Below are positions 1 to 10,445 of a stretch of DNA of 10,445 nucleotides, in pieces; the first letter of the stretch is position 1; each line of letters opens with the position of its first letter. Made by a program: the position numbers and the translations under genes. Under the pieces are notes generated by a model. The model had not been told where the DNA came from, did no database searches, and was given only the letters and a program-made list of their open reading frames with translations. Source of the DNA: Paraspadella gotoi (taxonomy: Eukaryota; Animalia; Chaetognatha); contig JBJCIZ010000332.1 of assembly GCA_051294375.1 (NCBI GenBank), forward strand, positions 1 through 10,445, given 5' to 3'.

Positions 1-12
1 CTCCGCGAACAC

Positions 13-303
13 GTTCCGTTTTCGCATCCGTTCCGATCCGTGCCGATCCGTTACCGTTTTTCGTTCCGTTTCGTTCCGTTTTCGTTCCGTTTCGTTCCGT
101 TTCGTTTCTCCGTTCGTTCCGTTTCTTCCGTTCCGTTCCGTTTTCGTTCCGTTTCGTTCCGTTCCGTTCCGTTTCGTTCCGCTCTTCGTTCCGTTTCGTT
201 CCGTTTCTTCCGTTTCGTTCCGTTTCTTCCGTTTCGTTCCGTTTCTTCCGTTTCGTTTCGCGTTCCGTTTCGTTTTGTTTCCTTCTATTCCGTTCCATTC
301 CTA
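13..303. repeat. (TTCCG/TTTCG)n pentanucleotide microsatellite, possibly the end of a MITE-like element
   Basis: Dense run of GTTCC/GTTTC pentamers ending abruptly in TATTCCGTTCCATTCCTA. The ORF 40..375 is a translation of this repeat. Confidence 0.9.
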
Positions 304-541
304 TTAAAAAATAACCGGTTTGGTAAAGCCATGTTGAAAAGCTGTTTTAATCTCAGGCCCGGCATCTGCGCATGAATCACGATCCTTTTTTTTTATCGTA
401 TCGAAGTCCTCATTAGATAACCCTCCTATAGCCAGTTTAAATACGCCCGGATTGCGCTTAAAATCGGCTTTACCGTGCCGATAAACGCGACTTCATTCAT
501 ATTTGCATTGAAATTTAATGATAAATAGACTTAATTAGTCC

Positions 542-2095: not shown

Positions 2096-2292
2096 TTAAA
2101 ACCAATTTCACTCGCACGGATCCCTCGAAACTTTCATATCCATCTCAATCACACAGTTTCCTACCCCACACACAAAATTTCATACCAATCCATCCATCCA
2201 ATCACGAGTAATTGGTGTTTTTTTGCTAAGGTGGGACGGACAGACGGACGGAACCGGACGGACGGACATCATTTTTTTGCATAATTAATCAA
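2096..2292 (-). mobile_element. Truncated copy of the DINE/HINE-like core (GTCC microsatellite plus one internal repeat unit)
   Basis: Reverse complement reads TTATGCAAAAAAATGATGTCCGTCCGTCC...CCCACCTTAGCAAAAAA...GGATTGGTATGAAATTTTGTGTGTGGGGTAGGAAACTGTGTGATTGA, colinear with ~3113-3310 and ~10238-10400. Confidence 0.85.
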
Positions 2293-2442
2293 AATATTAT
2301 TATATATCAAATTTTATATTGATTGCGTTTTGCATTTGACATGCGCACTGCAGCAGAGAAAAGTTGCCCTTCAAAATTGTGTTTTCATTTTAAAATCCAT
2401 TTTTTCTTCAATCTGTTTTTTCTAACTTTAACTATTTTTTAC

Positions 2443-2865
2443 AAAACTTTATATAAAAATGACAATATTATATATCTTCTGGAAAGCTTTTAAAAATATC
2501 CAAAATAGTTTGCATAATTAAAATTAGCCTATCAAGCTTTAAGATAATATCTAAATAAAAATTTTTAAAGAGCAGTTTTTAAATAATTATTAAATTATGT
2601 TAGCTATTTTATATTTACGTTTTTTTAAGCTTTTTTATGATACTTATATAAACAATATTGTAAGATCATTAAGTAAAAATAGGTCAGATTATTTAAAAAA
2701 AATATTTAAGGATTTATTTATTCAATTTGGAATTATCTTTAAATAAACTAAAGCTGGTTAGCTCCGTATTTTCATATTATAATATCTTAAATATATCATT
2801 TTCTTCAAATTTTCAAAAGCTTTCACGAAGATTTATAATATTGGAACCTTTTATTTAAAAGTTCT
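2443..2865. mobile_element. Fold-back / MITE-like segment with imperfect long inverted repeats
   Basis: 2443-2496 (AAAACTTTATATAAAAATGACAATATTATATATCTTCTGGAAAGCTTTTAAAAA) matches the reverse complement of 2810-2865. An inner match TTTAAAGATAAT / ATTATCTTTAAA lies at ~2538 / ~2732. The segment is largely absent from the homologous right arm. Confidence 0.6.
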
Positions 2866-2917
2866 TATTTGGACGAGAAAAAAATGATTATTGATTTAAA
2901 AATGGTTATTGTTTTAA

Positions 2918-2969
2918 TTTAAATCAGACATGTTGACTCTAGGACTAAGAGTCTTCATCAGCATTTAAA
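2918..2969 (-). ncRNA. Degenerate minimal type I hammerhead ribozyme (GAAA core reduced to AA)
   Basis: Minus strand: TTTAAATG-CTGATGA-A-GACTCT-tagtcct-AGAGTC-AA-CATGTC-TGATTTAAA. Stems I and II are intact but two nucleotides of the conserved GAAA are missing. Confidence 0.75.
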
Positions 2970-3223
2970 ATCACAAACGTATTCAGTTTTTAGTCGGTCT
3001 GCTTATCAGCAGCATCCCGACTCTATAATTCACTTTGTCGGTCCGTCGCCGTCCGCCCCCTCAATATTGTCGGGCACACACTTATATCATGTCAGAACAT
3101 CGAATATGATAAATTATGCAAAAAAAACGATGTTCACGTCCGTCCGTCCGTCGCTCTGTCCGGTCCTCCGTCCCACCTTAGCAAAAAACTTCCAATACTC
3201 GGATTTGATGAATGGATTGGTAT

Positions 3224-4730
3224 GGAAATTTTTGTGTGTTGGGTAGGAAAACTGTGTGATTGAATGGATATGAAGTTTCGGGGAATCGTAGCGAGTGGAA
3301 ATTGGTTTAAATGGAAAAAATAAAAAAATATTTCACTATCTGAACGCCAATTGGCTCGATGCAGTAGATAGGGCAATGACTTGAAATTTTGTTAATATAT
3401 ATAGTGTGTGATTGCCAGCTGGATATAAAGTTTCGATGGGCAATCGTGCCGTACGTGGAAATAAGTTTAAAATGGAAAAAACCAAAAGTCATATTACTTG
3501 GAAGTATTATTTACTAAATTTACTCATAATTATTATGTTTATTAAAAAGTTGGATAGATAAATCGAAATTGAATTTGAGTGTGGGTAGGGAAGTATGTGA
3601 TAAAGCTGGATATAAATTTTTAGATGAATCGTAGGAGTGGAAAAGAGTTTCAAATTAGAAAACCAAAAAACACAAATTTATTTGAATTTATGTTAAAGTT
3701 CTCTTCTCCTATCTCTCTCTGATTATATTGATTGATTGATTGATGATGCATGATGACTTACAAATTATGCAAATTGACAACCAAAAATATTGCAGGCCTT
3801 GACCCACCCACCTATTGCCAGTTGACAAAATTCTGCAAAGTATCAAGTCTGCAACGTTGACCAACAATTATGCCTGTTGCACCAAATTATGCCAGTTTGA
3901 CCAAATAGGCCAGTGATAAATTAGGCCAGTTGACCAAATTATGCCGGTGACCAAATTAATTTAATTTGATCAAATTACGTCAGTTACAAAATTATGCCAA
4001 GTTGGATTAAATTATGCAAGTGCACCAAGTTAGCTTATTCCACCTAATTATCGAATGACCTGCGAATTTTGTATGTGAGTAGAAAAGTGTGTGATTGAAC
4101 AGGAAACAAGTTTCGATGGAATCTTTTGAGTTGGAAATGAGTTTAAATGGAAAAAAACAAAAAACCTGTTTTACTAAATTAATTTCTTTTTTTATATTTT
4201 TATGTTAAAGTAAATGCAGGATGTATTAATAAATCAAATAATTCAATCAGTTAATTAATCAATTAGTCAATTTAATTAATCAATAATTAATTAATCAGTC
4301 AACCAATCCGTCCATCCGTCCCACCTTAGCAAAAGCTCAATAACTCGTTGATTGCGCTGGTTGGAATTGAATGGAATTTGTGTGTGGCGGTAGGGAAAGT
4401 GTAAAATGATTAAAGCTGGATATATAAGTTATCGACGAATCGTGGTGAGTGGAAATGAGTTTAAGTGGACAAAACATAAGGTCGCATTTACTAAAACTAT
4501 TTTTACTTATAACCAATAAGTACTTCTAATTAATCAAATTGGAGTGGATAGATGAGTTCAAATTTTGCCGTTGGTGGGGTAGGGAAAGTTGTGTGATTGA
4601 AGCTTGATATTAAAGTTTCGTTTACGAGTGGAAATGAGTTTAAATAAAAAAATATGGTCACATTACTATGAATCTTTTTATTATTTTAAACCCCATAATA
4701 GATGAGAATGAAATTTTGTGAGCGGGCTAG
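3224..4730 (+). repeat. Internal ~160-190 bp repeat unit, about six copies plus fragments
   Basis: Consensus GAAATTTTGTGTGTGGGTAGGAAA.TGTGTGATTGA..TGGATATAAGTTTCGATGGAATCGT..GAGTGGAAATGAGTTTAAATGGAAAAAAC at ~3224, 3383, 3571, 4064, 4374 and 4560. Truncated at ~4710, with another fragment at ~5380-5455. Confidence 0.85.
3760..4050. repeat. ~18 bp minisatellite (TTGACCAAATTATGCCAG)n, degenerate
   Basis: Recurrent CAAATTATGCCAGTTGAC variants throughout the interval. Confidence 0.85.
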
Positions 4731-4735
4731 AGAGC

Positions 4736-4766
<31 letters not shown>

Positions 4767-5060
4767 AGAAAGAGACAGGAGACGAGAGCAGAAAAATGAG
4801 ATAAGCGATCGTCGCAATTGCAAAAGCAGAGAGGAGAGAGAGAGAAGAGAGAGAGAGAGGAGATGAGAGGAGTAGAGAGAGAGAGAGAGGACGAGGAAAG
4901 AGAGCCAGCCAAAAATGAGCATTAGGAATCGTCGCAATTGCAAAGAGAGCAGAGAGAGAGAGAGACTGAGAGACGAAGAGAAGAGAGAGAGAGGAGAGCA
5001 GAAAAAATGAGCATAAGGATTCGTTTCAATTGCAAAGAGAGAAAGAGAGAAAGAGTCCGA
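4728..5060. repeat. (GA)n tracts alternating with a ~45 bp conserved block, three copies
   Basis: AGCAGAAAAATGAG(C)ATAAG.GATCGTCGCAATTGCAAA at ~4787, ~4906 and ~4997 between GA runs; a diverged fourth block lies at ~5547-5630. Confidence 0.85.
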
Positions 5061-5472
5061 GATTAAAATTAGCAAATAAAAAAAGTTGTTATTTTACTCA
5101 CTGAATAAAAATATTAAAATACTTACAACCAATACATTAACAAATTGATAAAAAATATTATTCCGATAACATTGTTTAATTCACATGGCCAATATATCTA
5201 GTAAGGCGGGCCAAAAATTGAACATATTTTATAACTTCTAGTTTCTCTCTTAAAAATTTTGTTTTCCTTTTACTACTTAAATCGATTTTTCAATGTAACT
5301 TGTTGAATTAGTTCATTTGGTTGTGCACTGAGCTTTTAAATATTTATTAATATCATAATAATTATTATTAAAGTTTTGACGGAATTGTGGCCAGTAGAAA
5401 TTAGTTTAGATGGCGAAAAAAACATAAGTCACATTTACTTGAATCTTTAATATTAATGATTACTAATAAATG

Positions 5473-5507
5473 TTTAATTAATTAATTAATTTAATTAATT
5501 AATTAAT
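5473..5507. repeat. (TAAT)n microsatellite
   Basis: TTTAATTAATTAATTAATTTAATTAATTAATTAAT; similar tracts at ~4250-4295 and ~5790-5822. Confidence 0.8.
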
Positions 5508-5875
5508 AGTGAAAAAATGGATGCAAGTTAAAAAGAATCTTACAAAGCCATTAAAGATGCGTTCGCATATTGCCATAAAAAGAGGAACGGATGGAGCAGA
5601 GAGAGAGTGAGAGAGCTGAGAAGAGAGATGAGAAGGCAAAGGCCAAAAATAAAATAGAGGATATTTGTTTGTTTTGATTAAAATGTAAAACAAAGAAACA
5701 TATTAATAAACTGTCCTAACCCAATTTTTAAGGAACATCGATGATGATAAGTTGAATATAAATTTCTAAAATTTAATTATTACATATTAAAATTAAATAA
5801 TTAATTAATTAATCGTATTAATAATATCGGTAGGCAGATCCGACATTGTTTAGCTCAAACTGTTTAAATATTGCA

Positions 5876-6180
5876 GTTTGTGAATTTTAAATGCTGATGA
5901 AGACTCGAAAGTTATTGAGTCGAAACATGTCCGATTTAAATAAAAACAAAATTATTGTTGTTAACTAATGAATTTTCGTTTTCTCTCTAAATAATTATAA
6001 AAAACAATAAAAGAAAGGATTAATTCAATGTAAATTTAAAAAAAAAATATTCATAAAGTTAGTCAAAAAATTTTCAAAAACTATTTCTTTTAAAATGAAA
6101 GACAATTTTTAAAGCAACTTTTACCTGGTCATTGCCAAGTCAAATCATAACCAATCAATATGAAATTTGGATATATAAAT
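5876..6180 (+). repeat. Right inverted arm carrying a hammerhead motif; homologous to 2300-2978
   Basis: Matches the reverse complement of the left arm at 5876-5950 and ~6045-6180, and lacks the fold-back segment. Confidence 0.8.
5886..5940 (+). ncRNA. Minimal type I hammerhead ribozyme (Penelope-like-element type), intact core
   Basis: Stem I TTTAAATG (5886-5893) / C(G)ATTTAAA (5932-5940); core CTGATGA (5894-5900) plus an extra A; stem II GACTC/GAGTC (5902-5906 / 5917-5921); GAAA (5922-5925); palindromic ACATGT in place of a full stem III; GUC triplet at 5929-5931, predicted cut after 5931. Confidence 0.85.
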
Positions 6181-6388
6181 GATTTAGGTTTTTACTATAG
6201 AAAAAATCTTTCAGATTAAAAATATATTCAAAAGTTTGCAAATGACAATTTTTTATTTAGCGGCGGGCTGTCGTATGTCACCTTGTAACCCAGGCTTTTT
6301 GTTTATTTCTGAGCTTCAACCCAAACTCTAGGTTGTAGTTTATTCAAATAACAATGTTACCGGCAATTCATGCATCAGTCACAATTGT

Positions 6389-7327
6389 GGTTCTAGTTGG
6401 TTGGCGACTTTACTATGGCAATATCGGCAAAGCCCTGGTGGTGTTGCCAATACCCTCACTGGTGACTTCGCCAGTAATAAAAGTAATGAATATAATGATA
6501 GGCGCAAGTTAAAGAAAAAGCTTGCGGCTGAAGTTGAGACATGGGGATAGATACATCACCTGCAGGCTCTTCCCTCAAAACTAAACCCTAACCCAAGTCT
6601 CCCATACATCTCCATGCCTTTCCCCAACCCTAACCCAGGCCTAGGTCTCCCATACATTTTCATGCATCAACCATAACCACCTTCGACGCGCCCACTGTGG
6701 GCTTTCCTTACCCTAACCCTTACCCGGGCCTCCATTTTTCTCCCCTAATCCTAACCCAGGCCTCCAGTACATCTCTGTGCCTCAACCCAACCCTAACTGC
6801 CTTCGATGCATCAACCATGGTCTTTTCCCCTAACCCGAGCCTCCCAATCAACTCCATGCTTTTCTCCCAACTCTAACCCTAACCCGGGCCTGGGCTTCCC
6901 ATATATCTCTGTTCCTCAACCCTAACTTTAACCGCCTTTGATGCATCAACAGTAAGTCTCTCCCCATACCCTAACCCAGGCCTACCATTCAACTCCAAGC
7001 CTCTCTCCTAACCCTAACCTAAACCCCGGACCTTGCCTCCCTTATATATCCGTACCTCAACTTTAATCCCTAATATCTATTGCCAGTACCTTATTTAACC
7101 CTAATGCCGGCTTGTTTATCTTAACCTTAAAATTGACATTAACCCTAACCATAACCTTAAACTACTCAACCTTAACCCTAACCCTAAACTACTTAACCCT
7201 AACCCTAATTATTACAAACTCAACCTTAACCCTAAACCAAACCAACTCAACCTTAACCCTAAACCTAACCAACCTAATCTAACCCTAAACTACCTCAACC
7301 CTAACCCTAACCATAATCTGAGTTTTA
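6389..7327 (+). mobile_element. Telomere-repeat-bearing element, copy 1 (more decayed, right TIR missing)
   Basis: Begins GGTTCTAGTTGGTTGGCGAC, continues into a CCCTAA-punctuated composite repeat and a degenerate CCCTAA tail, and ends TAATCTGAGTTTTA. Colinear with the reverse complement of 8824-9670. Confidence 0.8.
7140..7312. repeat. Degenerate interstitial (CCCTAA)n telomere-like tract
   Basis: AACCCTAACCCTAA variants interleaved with ACTACTC/ACCAACTC motifs. Confidence 0.85.
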
Positions 7328-7419
7328 AGAAGAATCTCTATAACGAGAATGCTAAATATAATTCACAGTTAAATTACCAAAGAGTGAGGATGTCACCAAA
7401 AAATAAAAAAAATATTTAG

Positions 7420-7598: not shown

Positions 7599-7770
7599 GG
7601 AGCCGAAATTGGAGCCGGAGCCAAGTTGAAATTTTTGCTGGAGCCGGAGCCGGAGCCGAAAAAAAATTTTGCTTGGAGCCGGAGCCGGAGCTGGAGCTGA
7701 AAAAAAATTTGGCCTGGAGCTGGAGCCGGAGCTGGAGCCGAGACAAAATTAGATCGGCTCCACATCCCTG
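7599..7770 (+). mobile_element. (GGAGCC/GGAGCT)n-containing MITE-like fragment with terminal hairpin
   Basis: Hexamer runs separated by AAAAAAATTT spacers; GGAGCCG (7734-7740) pairs with CGGCTCC (7755-7761); ends ACATCCCTG. No matching left end found. Confidence 0.65.
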
Positions 7771-8675: not shown

Positions 8676-8795
8676 TTCAGCCCTAAGTTGTAGTTCATTC
8701 AAATAGCAATGTCGCCGGCGCATTCACGCCAAAGTCGCAGTGTGGTTCTTGTTGGTTGGCGAACTTCGCCATGGCGATATCGCCAGGGCTTTGGC
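8676..8795 (+). mobile_element. Truncated 5' fragment of the telomere-repeat element plus shared upstream flank
   Basis: GTTGTAGTTCATTCAAATAGCAATGTCGCCGGC...TGTGGTTCTTGTTGGTTGGCGAAC... is a direct-orientation match to ~6315-6440. Confidence 0.8.
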
Positions 8796-9670
8796 GTTCT
8801 AGTTATGGCGATTTCACCTAAACTAAAACTCAGATTAGGGTTAGGGTGAGGGTTGATTGGTTTAGGATTAGGGTTGATTGGTAGTAGTTAGGGTTAGGGT
8901 TGAGTAGTTTAGGGCTAGGTTGAGTAGTTTTTATTAATGTCATTTTAGGATAGGGGTAGGGAGGGTGTTTGTGATGACCAAGAGGCCCGCGTTAGGCTTA
9001 GGGAAGTATTGGCGAGGGACATTAGGGATTAGGGTTGAGGCACGGAGATGTACGCGGAGGCCTGGCCCGGTTTAGGGTTAGGTTGGGAGAGAGGCCCGTG
9101 TTTATATATCAAAGGCGATTAGAGTTAGGGTTGAGGTACGGAGATGTAGAAGGAGGCCGCGGCCTGGGTTAGGGTTAGGGAGAGGCATGGAGTGAACGGG
9201 AGGCTTGGTTTAGGGTTAGGGTTGGGGGAGGGACCCATGGTTGATGCATCGAAGGGCGGTTAGGGTTAGGGTTGAGGCAACGGAGATGTACGCGGAGGCC
9301 TGGCCTGGGTTAGGGTTTAGGGGAGAGCACCAGAGTTGAACGGGAGGCTTGGTTTAGGGTTAGCATTGGGGAGGACCCGTGGTTGTTGCAACAAAGGCAG
9401 TTTAGGGTTAGGGTTGAGGCATGACAATGATCGGGAGGCCCAGGCCCGGGTTTAGGGTTAGGGGAGAGGCACAGAGTTGAACGGAGGTTTGGTTTTTAGG
9501 GTTAGGGTTGGGAGAGGATCCTGTAGGTGATGTTCTATCCCTTTGTTAGCTGCGCTTTTCAGTATATTCGCTACTTTTATCACTGGCGAGGTCGCCAGTG
9601 GGAGGACTGGCTGACATCGCCAAAGCCCTGGCGATATCGCCATGGCGAAGTCGCCACACCAACTAGAACC
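8796..9670 (-). mobile_element. Telomere-repeat-bearing TIR element, copy 2 (apparently complete, ~875 bp)
   Basis: Imperfect TIRs GTTCTAGTTATGGCGATTTCACC (8796-8818) and GGCGAAGTCGCCACACCAACTAGAACC (9644-9670); internal TTAGGG-rich composite repeat; no coding capacity; no clear TSD seen. Confidence 0.75.
9020..9515 (+). repeat. ~141 bp composite repeat of three blocks separated by TTAGGG doublets
   Basis: TTGAGG(C/T)A recurs at 9131, 9272 and 9413. Blocks are A GTTGAGGCACGGAGATGTACGCGGAGGCCTGGCCTGGG, B GGAGAGGCA..GAGTTGAACGGGAGGCTTGG and C GGGGAGGACCC.TGGTTGATGCATCGAAGGC.G. Confidence 0.85.
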
Positions 9671-9807
9671 TCGATTTATTAACAGCCAAAAACTGTTATG
9701 AATTTTAAGTCATTGATTTATTTTTTCAAAACTGTTAATCATCAATTATTACTTATAAATAATACTTATGTCACAACCGCACTGAATGCCTGACTGCAGG
9801 TGGCTGT

Positions 9808-10113
9808 GGTATTCCTCCCCGCAGGGATTCCTCCAACTGGATTCTTCCCACACGGGATTCTCCCACGCGGATTCCTCCTATGGATTCCTCCCACTCTGGA
9901 TTCCTCCCACACGGAATTCCTCCCACACAGGATTTCTCCCACACGTGATACTCCCACGCGGGATTACTCCCACACCGATTATCTCCACACAGGGATTCCT
10001 CCAACACGGGATTTCTCCACACGGGATTCGTCCCACGCGGGATATCTCCCACACTGATTCCTCCTACATGGATTCCTCCCACACGCGATTCCTTCCCACA
10101 CGGATCTCTCCCC
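9808..10113. repeat. 16-17 bp minisatellite (GGGATTCCTCCCACAC)n
   Basis: Roughly 18 degenerate tandem units; explains the four overlapping ORFs here. Confidence 0.9.
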
Positions 10114-10145: not shown

Positions 10146-10445
10146 ACTCTATATTCACTTTGTCAGTCCGTCGGTCCCACCCCTAAATATTGTCGGTACA
10201 TCATTATTATCATATCAGAACCTCGAATTATGATAAATTATGCCAAAAAAATGATGTCCGTCCGTCCGTCCCCCCTTAGCAAAAAACTCCAATTACTTGT
10301 GACTGGATGGATGGATTGGTATAAAATTTTGTGTGTAGGTAGGAAACTGTGTGATTGATATGGATATGAAGTTTCGATGGAATCGTGCGAGTGAAAAAGA
10401 GTTAGAATGGAAAAAACAAAAGTCATATTTACTTGAAGTATTTTT
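10146..10445 (+). mobile_element. Second DINE/HINE-like copy, lacking the 5' hairpin and running off the window end
   Basis: ACTCTATATTCACTTTGTCAGTCCGTC...AATATTGTCGG...TCAGAAC.TCGAAT.ATGATAAATTATGC...GTCCGTCCGTCC...CTTAGCAAAAAACT is colinear with ~3020-3330. Confidence 0.85.

What the first reader, a model, noticed from the sequence alone, without database searches (positions are those of the whole stretch)
2300..6180. Outward-facing hammerhead ribozyme pair bracketing a Helentron-like element
Seen: two homologous arms in inverted orientation, each starting with a hammerhead motif roughly 20 bp from an end of the 2987-5865 element. Known: minimal type I hammerheads mark the pLTRs of Penelope-like retroelements, which often occur in inverted arrangements, while DINE-1/HINEs are rolling-circle DNA elements. 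Two inferences are possible. (a) A HINE inserted at the T-rich axis of a head-to-head pLTR palindrome; removing it leaves roughly TCACAAAC-~20 nt-GTTTGTGA. (b) This is a composite mobile unit whose read-out transcripts on either strand meet a ribozyme at the boundary. Option (b) is not an architecture I recognise.
Basis: partly seen in the sequence, partly recalled or inferred. Interest (0 to 1): 0.85.

Follow-up and report, generated by a model that had tools for sequence, protein, structure and literature searches.

The report
Head-to-head Penelope ribozyme relics, HINE inserted
Two decayed, back-to-back copies of a common repeat carrying a small self-cutting RNA motif (one copy broken), likely left by one Penelope-type retrotransposon insertion, are split by a common rolling-circle DNA transposon that likely landed between them later; this looks like ordinary nested mobile DNA, not a new kind of element.

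Summary
The anatomy is real. Two inverted arms flank a 2.9-kb HINE (non-autonomous Helentron) and align well beyond the ribozyme. Only the right hammerhead (core 5894-5931) is intact; the left one lacks the GA of its GAAA core box. The arms are unequal: the left carries a 419-bp insert with inverted ends and stops at another HINE fragment, and family copies in public contigs follow the right arm to about 6287, not 6180. In those contigs arms and HINE look like separate repeat families: arm copies continue upstream into sequence that is not the HINE end, and other HINE copies close 1.8 kb earlier. The same hammerhead type forms uninterrupted outward-facing palindromes in 2 of 4 distinct metagenome loci, and head-to-head pairs are described for Penelope-like elements. 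Best reading (0.7): reading (a), a head-to-head pair of 5'-truncated Penelope-type ends, later split by a HINE at the T-run of the joint. Reading (b), a composite unit, has no support. No RT/GIY-YIG gene was found, and no genome or RNA run was available, so Penelope membership rests on ribozyme type and layout.

The parts
2096..2295 (-). 5'-truncated fragment of the same HINE family as the central element; abuts and ends the left arm
   Evidence: 82% to 3107-3311 and to 10227-10396; alignment
2300..2444 (-). Left arm, distal part (homologue of 6042-6178); outer end lost
   Evidence: 78%, E 5e-18; 0 of 300 shuffles reach the score
2445..2863 (.). About 419-bp insert in the left arm with ~50-bp terminal inverted repeats (MITE-like, inferred)
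   Evidence: 2448-2497 vs 2809-2859 inverted, 82%; without it the arms align at 218 of 262 ungapped columns
2864..2986 (-). Left arm, proximal part, reading outward from the HINE
2918..2970 (-). Broken minimal type I hammerhead: helices I and II kept, GA of the GAAA core box missing; predicted inactive
   Evidence: inactivity inferred from recalled hammerhead core requirements
2987..5865 (+). HINE (DINE-1-like non-autonomous Helentron) with internal module repeats; begins in a T5 run and ends TGTTT
   Evidence: subTIRs 2993-3002 and 5834-5844; 5' hairpin z -2.3; GTCC microsatellite and core shared with two other copies in the window
2992..3022 (+). 5' subTIR with its short inverted-repeat partner (hairpin)
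   Evidence: fold; scan
3856..4032 (+). 18-bp tandem array inside the HINE
4053..5826 (+). Extra internal segment (second core, repeated modules, GA-rich repeats 4729-5062) that other family copies lack
   Evidence: loose ends behind 4039 run straight into the 3' subTIR in 16 records of X2 and 9 of X4; joints skip modules
5834..5860 (+). 3' subTIR (5834-5844) and imperfect 3' palindrome (5848-5860) of the HINE
   Evidence: read from the sequence; layout as in PMC4067079
5866..5874 (+). 9-nt linker at the axis, assigned to neither arm nor HINE
   Evidence: arm-family records diverge before 5875; a similar short unpaired centre lies in the L005 palindrome
5875..6287 (+). Right arm: 5'-truncated copy of a multicopy, non-coding, hammerhead-bearing repeat (Penelope pLTR-like, inferred)
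   Evidence: 303 records of X2 and 53 of X5 laid on 5820-6120; pieces reach 6221-6287
5885..5940 (+). Intact minimal type I hammerhead: CUGAUGA, helix II GACUC/GAGUC, GAAA, palindromic ACAUGU helix III, predicted cut after C5931
   Evidence: (z -2.3)

Best explanation
The two arms are inverted, decayed copies of one multicopy hammerhead-bearing repeat, likely laid down head-to-head by a single Penelope-type retrotransposition, and the HINE between them likely inserted later into the T-run at their joint. Shown: arm homology, one intact and one broken ribozyme motif, HINE ends, many other copies of both families, and uninterrupted head-to-head palindromes of this ribozyme type elsewhere. Inferred mechanism: a Penelope RT/GIY-YIG protein cut AT-rich DNA and reverse-transcribed the element's 3' region, stopping early, so that two 5'-truncated ends met at the centre with their 3' ends facing outward. 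That could be by extension from both cut strands or by fold-back self-priming. A Helentron RepHel protein then copied a HINE into the T-run. A MITE-like insert and a further HINE hit the left arm, and both arms decayed. The locus is predicted to be inert: nothing moves as a unit and the ribozymes have no role at the HINE boundary.
For: Arms align outside the ribozyme. Public contigs switch from left-arm-like to right-arm-like sequence in register (joint 2400 to 6088, opposite strands, 2 contigs in X2 and 1 in X4), as expected if both arms belong to one family. Five X2 contigs continue upstream of 5875 with a shared non-HINE sequence (agreement 0.83) that shares AACTGAA with the left arm just before the T-run; one X5 contig also runs 74 unlike letters past 5875. 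Other HINE copies close at the 3' subTIR straight after 4039. HINEs target T-rich sites (PMC4067079 passages), and two more family copies lie in this 10-kb window. L001/L002 (one locus, 462 bp, 95%) and L005 (358 bp, 89%) are outward-facing hammerhead palindromes with no insert, ending 54-60 nt after the cut site and differing in centre length. Helix I pairs within families more than across them (45 vs 21.5 +/- 7.2; 12 of 5000 permutations; 9 motifs including both window arms). Literature: dual minimal hammerheads 100-700 bp apart on opposite strands (PMC4209133); head-to-head is the most frequent inverted arrangement (PMC3846280); a Penelope-type protein cuts and extends both strands of AT-rich DNA (PMC11167929).
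Against: No RT or GIY-YIG match in 82 of the 88 frames listed from the window and the five loci (Pfam; six low-complexity frames from window 1-372 were left out), so the link to Penelope is indirect. The arm runs about 350 nt past the cut site, against 54-60 nt in the metagenome palindromes. The arms differ by about 17% of aligned columns and have unlike helix II loops; a left-type loop end appears as a loose end in 8 X2 contigs (agreement only 0.6), which could mean two subfamilies and two events. No target-site duplication can be read because the left outer end is lost. No empty head-to-head copy of this arm family was seen. The metagenome loci share only the ribozyme with the window. The laid runs hold relatives of these repeats, not this locus (share of words 0.05-0.09, no long near-identical piece).
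Confidence: 0.7

Rival explanations
1. Chance nesting: the two arms are separate insertions of two subfamilies that ended up back to back, with the HINE arriving before, between or after them.
For: Unlike helix II loops and about 17% divergence; a left-type loop end in other contigs; the window is almost wholly repeats.
Against: Both arms are truncated within about 12 nt of the same family position and meet within 21-23 nt once the HINE is removed, the layout seen in L002 and L005.
Confidence: 0.12
2. The arms are long terminal inverted repeats of a DNA transposon or MITE that once took up a Penelope 3' end; the HINE inserted into its centre.
For: The right arm ends CACCTTG-TA at 6287 and one locus (records 7 and 23) stops matching exactly there; a TA-flanked end of this look recalls Tc1/mariner (recalled, not tested). 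The arm is much longer after the ribozyme than L002 or L005.
Against: Other listed pieces stop matching at 6221-6222, 6264 and 6282. The matching outer end is not in the window. The ribozyme type is that of Penelope-like elements.
Confidence: 0.1
3. Composite mobile unit: HINE plus both arms moved together, by Penelope machinery acting on the flanking arms or by Helentron machinery, with ribozymes trimming read-out transcripts.
For: The symmetry itself. Unrelated sequence captured between solo pLTRs is reported in a rotifer (PMC3846280 passage).
Against: The left core is broken. Each strand has one sense copy of a dimer-type motif, and on a spanning transcript the other arm is antisense and is predicted to pair with it (duplex -81 kcal/mol against -15 and -12 for the separate folds). 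The insert begins and ends at HINE termini. Arm copies elsewhere continue into non-HINE sequence.
Confidence: 0.04
4. A local inverted duplication of the chromosome copied an old solo arm; no retrotransposition step made the palindrome.
For: The locus is rearranged: the left arm and the neighbouring HINE fragment are both cut at 2296-2300.
Against: Homology is confined to the repeat family. A possible continuation of the left arm near 1960 was not significant (50 of 300 shuffles as good).
Confidence: 0.04

Closest known systems
Inverted (head-to-head) pLTR pairs of endonuclease-positive Penelope-like elements with minimal type I hammerheads (PMC4209133; PMC3846280; PMC8557442)
   Same: Minimal core with a palindromic helix III, one unpaired base before helix II, G-C first pair; two copies on opposite strands with 5' ends meeting; unequal 5' truncation; AT-rich site; many dispersed non-coding copies.
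   Different: No ORF next to either arm; one core broken; about 350 nt after the cut site; loops differ between arms; axis interrupted by a HINE; no readable target-site duplication or tail.
HINE / DINE-1-like non-autonomous Helentrons (PMC4067079)
   Same: 5' subTIR with short inverted repeat, GTCC microsatellite, internal tandem repeats, 3' subTIR and palindrome, T-rich flanks, no coding frame, many copies.
   Different: At 2.9 kb it has a second core and extra modules that other copies lack; the subTIR pair is imperfect; no autonomous partner identified.
Metazoan non-LTR retrozymes (bioRxiv 10.64898/2026.07.22.740005; PMC7229834, listing only)
   Same: Short non-coding repeat of a few hundred bases with a type I hammerhead, pLTR-related.
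   Different: Retrozymes are defined as head-to-tail tandem units with a ribozyme in each; here the two copies are head-to-head and one is broken.

Membership tests
Minimal type I hammerhead (right arm) | Core CUGANGA and GAAA, NUH cut site, helices I and II, short palindromic helix III | tested here: met
   Rfam has no hit at E up to 1
Minimal type I hammerhead (left arm) | GAAA core box | tested here: not met
   two bases missing; no such deletion at 10% or more among family contigs laid on the right arm
Minimal type I hammerhead | Self-cleavage (as a dimer) | not testable with these tools
   needs an in vitro assay; cofolding two copies gave no catalytic dimer fold as the lowest-energy state
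Penelope-like elements | RT plus GIY-YIG ORF adjoining the repeat | tested here: inconclusive
   none in 82 frames scanned; truncated copies would lack it, and no genome was held
Penelope-like elements | Hammerhead in the terminal repeat | tested here: met
Penelope-like elements | Inverted 5'-truncated copy adjacent at the 5' end | tested here: met
   21-23 nt apart once the HINE is removed; family sequence continues upstream in other copies
Penelope-like elements | Optional 30-40 bp tail and target-site duplication | tested here: inconclusive
   ragged ends 6221-6287 in few listed pieces; left outer end lost
HINE / non-autonomous Helentron | Subterminal inverted repeats, 3' palindrome, T-rich flanks | tested here: met
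   2993-3002 vs 5834-5844 (10 matches, 1 gap); palindrome 5848-5860 (imperfect); T5 and TTT flanks
HINE / non-autonomous Helentron | Autonomous RepHel partner sharing the ends; empty site without target duplication | not testable with these tools
   no genome held; no run holds this locus
Non-LTR retrozyme | Head-to-tail tandem units each with a complete hammerhead | tested here: not met
   one intact core in the window; copies inverted; other loci of the family not visible

The most novel reading that the evidence does not exclude
The HINE and its two ribozyme-bearing arms are one mobile unit: a rolling-circle DNA element carried between inverted Penelope ends and copied in trans by Penelope reverse transcriptase, so that a DNA transposon travels by an RNA route with ribozyme-defined transcript ends. 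This copy would be a decayed member.
Probability: 0.04. Interest if true: 0.75.

Novelty: new member of a known kind. Interest (0 to 1): 0.2.

Why it matters
As read here it matters little: it is a clear example of nested decay, and shows how two known layouts (a head-to-head Penelope pair and a T-targeted HINE) mimic a designed composite. One modest use: if the two arms of such palindromes often come from different subfamilies, that would favour two RNA templates copied from both ends of one cut over fold-back self-priming, an open point in Penelope integration. A genome-wide count could test that. If the composite reading were true it would join rolling-circle and retro-transposition in one unit; listings showed no such report.

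Tried and rejected
No source genome was held, so junctions could not be counted. No RNA holder listed, so read ends at 5931/5932 could not be mapped; this says nothing on expression. The bin 5864-5874 across the right junction had no cover in X2 or X5, but a hole proves nothing, the HINE 3' end itself was thinly laid, and the runs do not hold this locus, so it is not counted as evidence. No joint from about 2986 to 5866 (empty site) was among the 15 of 220 joints shown. Summed contig depth was not used as a copy number. Four of the 8 listed runs were laid (X2-X5; two calls). Rfam gave no hit. Pattern scans of viral contigs and prokaryote genomes gave 0 loci. Pfam gave one sub-threshold Vif hit in L002, taken as chance. 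The pair count on the eight-motif alignment was circular because the search pattern fixed the stems; the helix I permutation replaced it, and a filter slip kept both window arms in that set. A continuation of the left arm near 1960 was rejected. An ATG near the right arm's end as an ORF start was rejected: nearly all laid depth reads G at 6275. An Athena-like telomere attachment from the single TAACCC after 6285 was not pursued: it belongs to the neighbouring repeat. Look-ups of earlier findings by sequence and by words found nothing. Literature searches for hammerhead with Helitron/Helentron or MITE were seen as listings only; supplements were not read and could hold examples.
Full report
Setting. 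The window is 36% G+C and almost wholly repeats, with no Pfam match in the 39 window frames scanned. TTAGGG-type repeats and an earlier scan note point to an animal. No genome is held, so outside evidence came from coded public contig sets and a metagenome pattern scan.

The arms. Self-comparison gives two inverted blocks, 2909-2978 with 5876-5949 (85%) and 2300-2440 with 6042-6178 (78%). The distal block lies outside the ribozyme and scores 112 against 29.4 +/- 3.7 in 300 dinucleotide shuffles; the 60 bases after the cut site score 33 against 18.2 +/- 3.2 (1 of 300). The left arm is longer because 2445-2863 is an insert with inverted ends; leaving it out, 218 of 262 ungapped columns match. 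The left arm stops at 2300 against a 5'-truncated HINE fragment. Contigs of organism A follow the right arm past 6180 to between 6221 and 6287, and a few switch in register from left-arm-like to right-arm-like sequence. So the arms are two damaged copies of one roughly 410-bp multicopy repeat, both cut short at the 5' end.

The ribozymes. The right motif has the whole minimal type I core, helix II GACUC/GAGUC, a palindromic ACAUGU helix III, and an 8-pair helix I with one bulge; the predicted cut is 5931/5932. The left motif keeps the helices but lacks the GA of GAAA. By recalled hammerhead chemistry that removes the general base, so it is predicted dead. Family contigs vary mostly in the helix II loop and show no such deletion at 10% or more. 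Across nine motifs, helix I pairs within a motif more than across motifs (12 of 5000 permutations; both window arms included). Cervera and De la Pena report that such motifs show no cleavage as monomers and little as dimers (PMC4209133, parts 1-2 of 4 read). Here each strand carries one sense copy, and the other arm on the same strand is antisense and predicted to pair with it. That weakens the idea that read-out transcripts meet a working ribozyme on either side.

The central element. It starts in a T5 run with a subTIR folded against a short inverted repeat, has a GTCC microsatellite, a core shared at about 77-82% with copies at 2096-2295 and 10146-10421, internal arrays, and ends with a subTIR, an imperfect palindrome and TGTTT. 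This is the DINE-1/HINE layout with its T-rich target (PMC4067079, passages). Other copies go from 4039 straight to the 3' subTIR, and many skip internal modules, so this is a long variant or a nest of a variable family.

The joint. Removing the HINE leaves the arms 21-23 nt apart. Five X2 contigs continue upstream of 5875 with a shared sequence that is not the HINE end. That sequence shares AACTGAA with the left arm's last bases, so the left arm reaches about 10 nt further up the family than the right and the HINE sits in its T-run; 5866-5874 is a 9-nt linker. This is what a HINE inserted at the axis of an unevenly truncated head-to-head pair would leave. The limit is plain: these runs hold relatives of the repeats, not this locus.

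Uninterrupted pairs elsewhere. A pattern for the right core found 5 metagenome loci, 4 distinct. L001/L002 and L005 are palindromes of 462 and 358 bp with two outward-facing cores, no insert, outer ends 54-60 nt after the cut and different centre lengths. L004 is single; L003 is single with only about 226 bases upstream before the contig ends. They share only the ribozyme with the window, so they show the layout, not this family's empty site. No RT or GIY-YIG frame was found in them.

What is known. Dual minimal hammerheads 100-700 bp apart on opposite strands, probably truncated Penelope-like elements, are reported (PMC4209133). An inverted 5'-truncated copy at the 5' end is typical (PMC8557442, passages). 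Head-to-head is the most frequent inverted form and was ascribed to self-priming (PMC3846280, passages). A purified Penelope-type protein cuts and extends both strands of AT-rich DNA, and its ribozyme was dispensable for insertion in vitro (PMC11167929, parts 1-2 of 4). Non-LTR retrozymes are tandem pLTR derivatives (bioRxiv 10.64898/2026.07.22.740005, part 1 of 5 and passages; supplements closed). Searches for hammerheads with Helitrons, Helentrons or MITEs listed no composite by title or abstract start.

Mechanism and odds. Best (0.7): one Penelope-type event left two truncated ends head-to-head; a HINE later inserted at the T-run; further inserts and decay followed. The order of events and the enzymes are inferred. 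Against it: no ORF link, an arm far longer after the ribozyme than in L002 and L005, unlike loops, no readable target duplication. Rivals: two separate insertions (0.12), long terminal repeats of a DNA transposon (0.10), composite unit (0.04), local inverted duplication (0.04). It works like a Penelope inverted pLTR pair; membership is likely but unproven. A HINE at the axis needs no special cause: the family has three copies or fragments in this 10 kb, and interrupted palindromes may survive better than perfect ones (inference).

Verdict. A real but ordinary nested structure; new member of known kinds; interest 0.2.

Noticed in passing
window 6288-7330 and 8683-9676: A repeat family rich in TAACCC (telomere-like) units with a ~142-bp higher-order period; two copies lie inverted (66% over 944 columns) and a third fragment meets the second near 8820.
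   Followed up: no
window 6235-6400: Contigs of organism A run across the right arm's end into the TAACCC family (6258-6400 in X2 and X5, 6235-6370 in X4) at depths well above neighbouring pieces, so this junction may be repeated.
   Followed up: partly
window 2445-2863: AT-rich insert with ~50-bp terminal inverted repeats; contigs of three of four runs lie on its middle. Likely a MITE.
   Followed up: partly
window 27-301, 7611-7750, 9811-10103: Tandem arrays with 5/10-bp (TTCCG-type), 35-41-bp (GGAGCC-rich) and 16-bp units.
   Followed up: no
L002 2495 and 613 (minus), L005 1852 (minus): Three more minimal hammerhead cores of other families, with different helix II sequences, within a few kb of the palindromes.
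   Followed up: partly
L002 300-524; L003 1317-1523; L005 384-823 and 2788-2992: Further self-inverted repeats without a matched hammerhead core.
   Followed up: no
L003 211-1239 (minus): A 343-residue open frame with hydrophobic stretches and no Pfam match, downstream of the hammerhead.
   Followed up: no
window 5885-5940: Rfam 15 does not detect this intact minimal hammerhead even at E up to 1.
   Followed up: no
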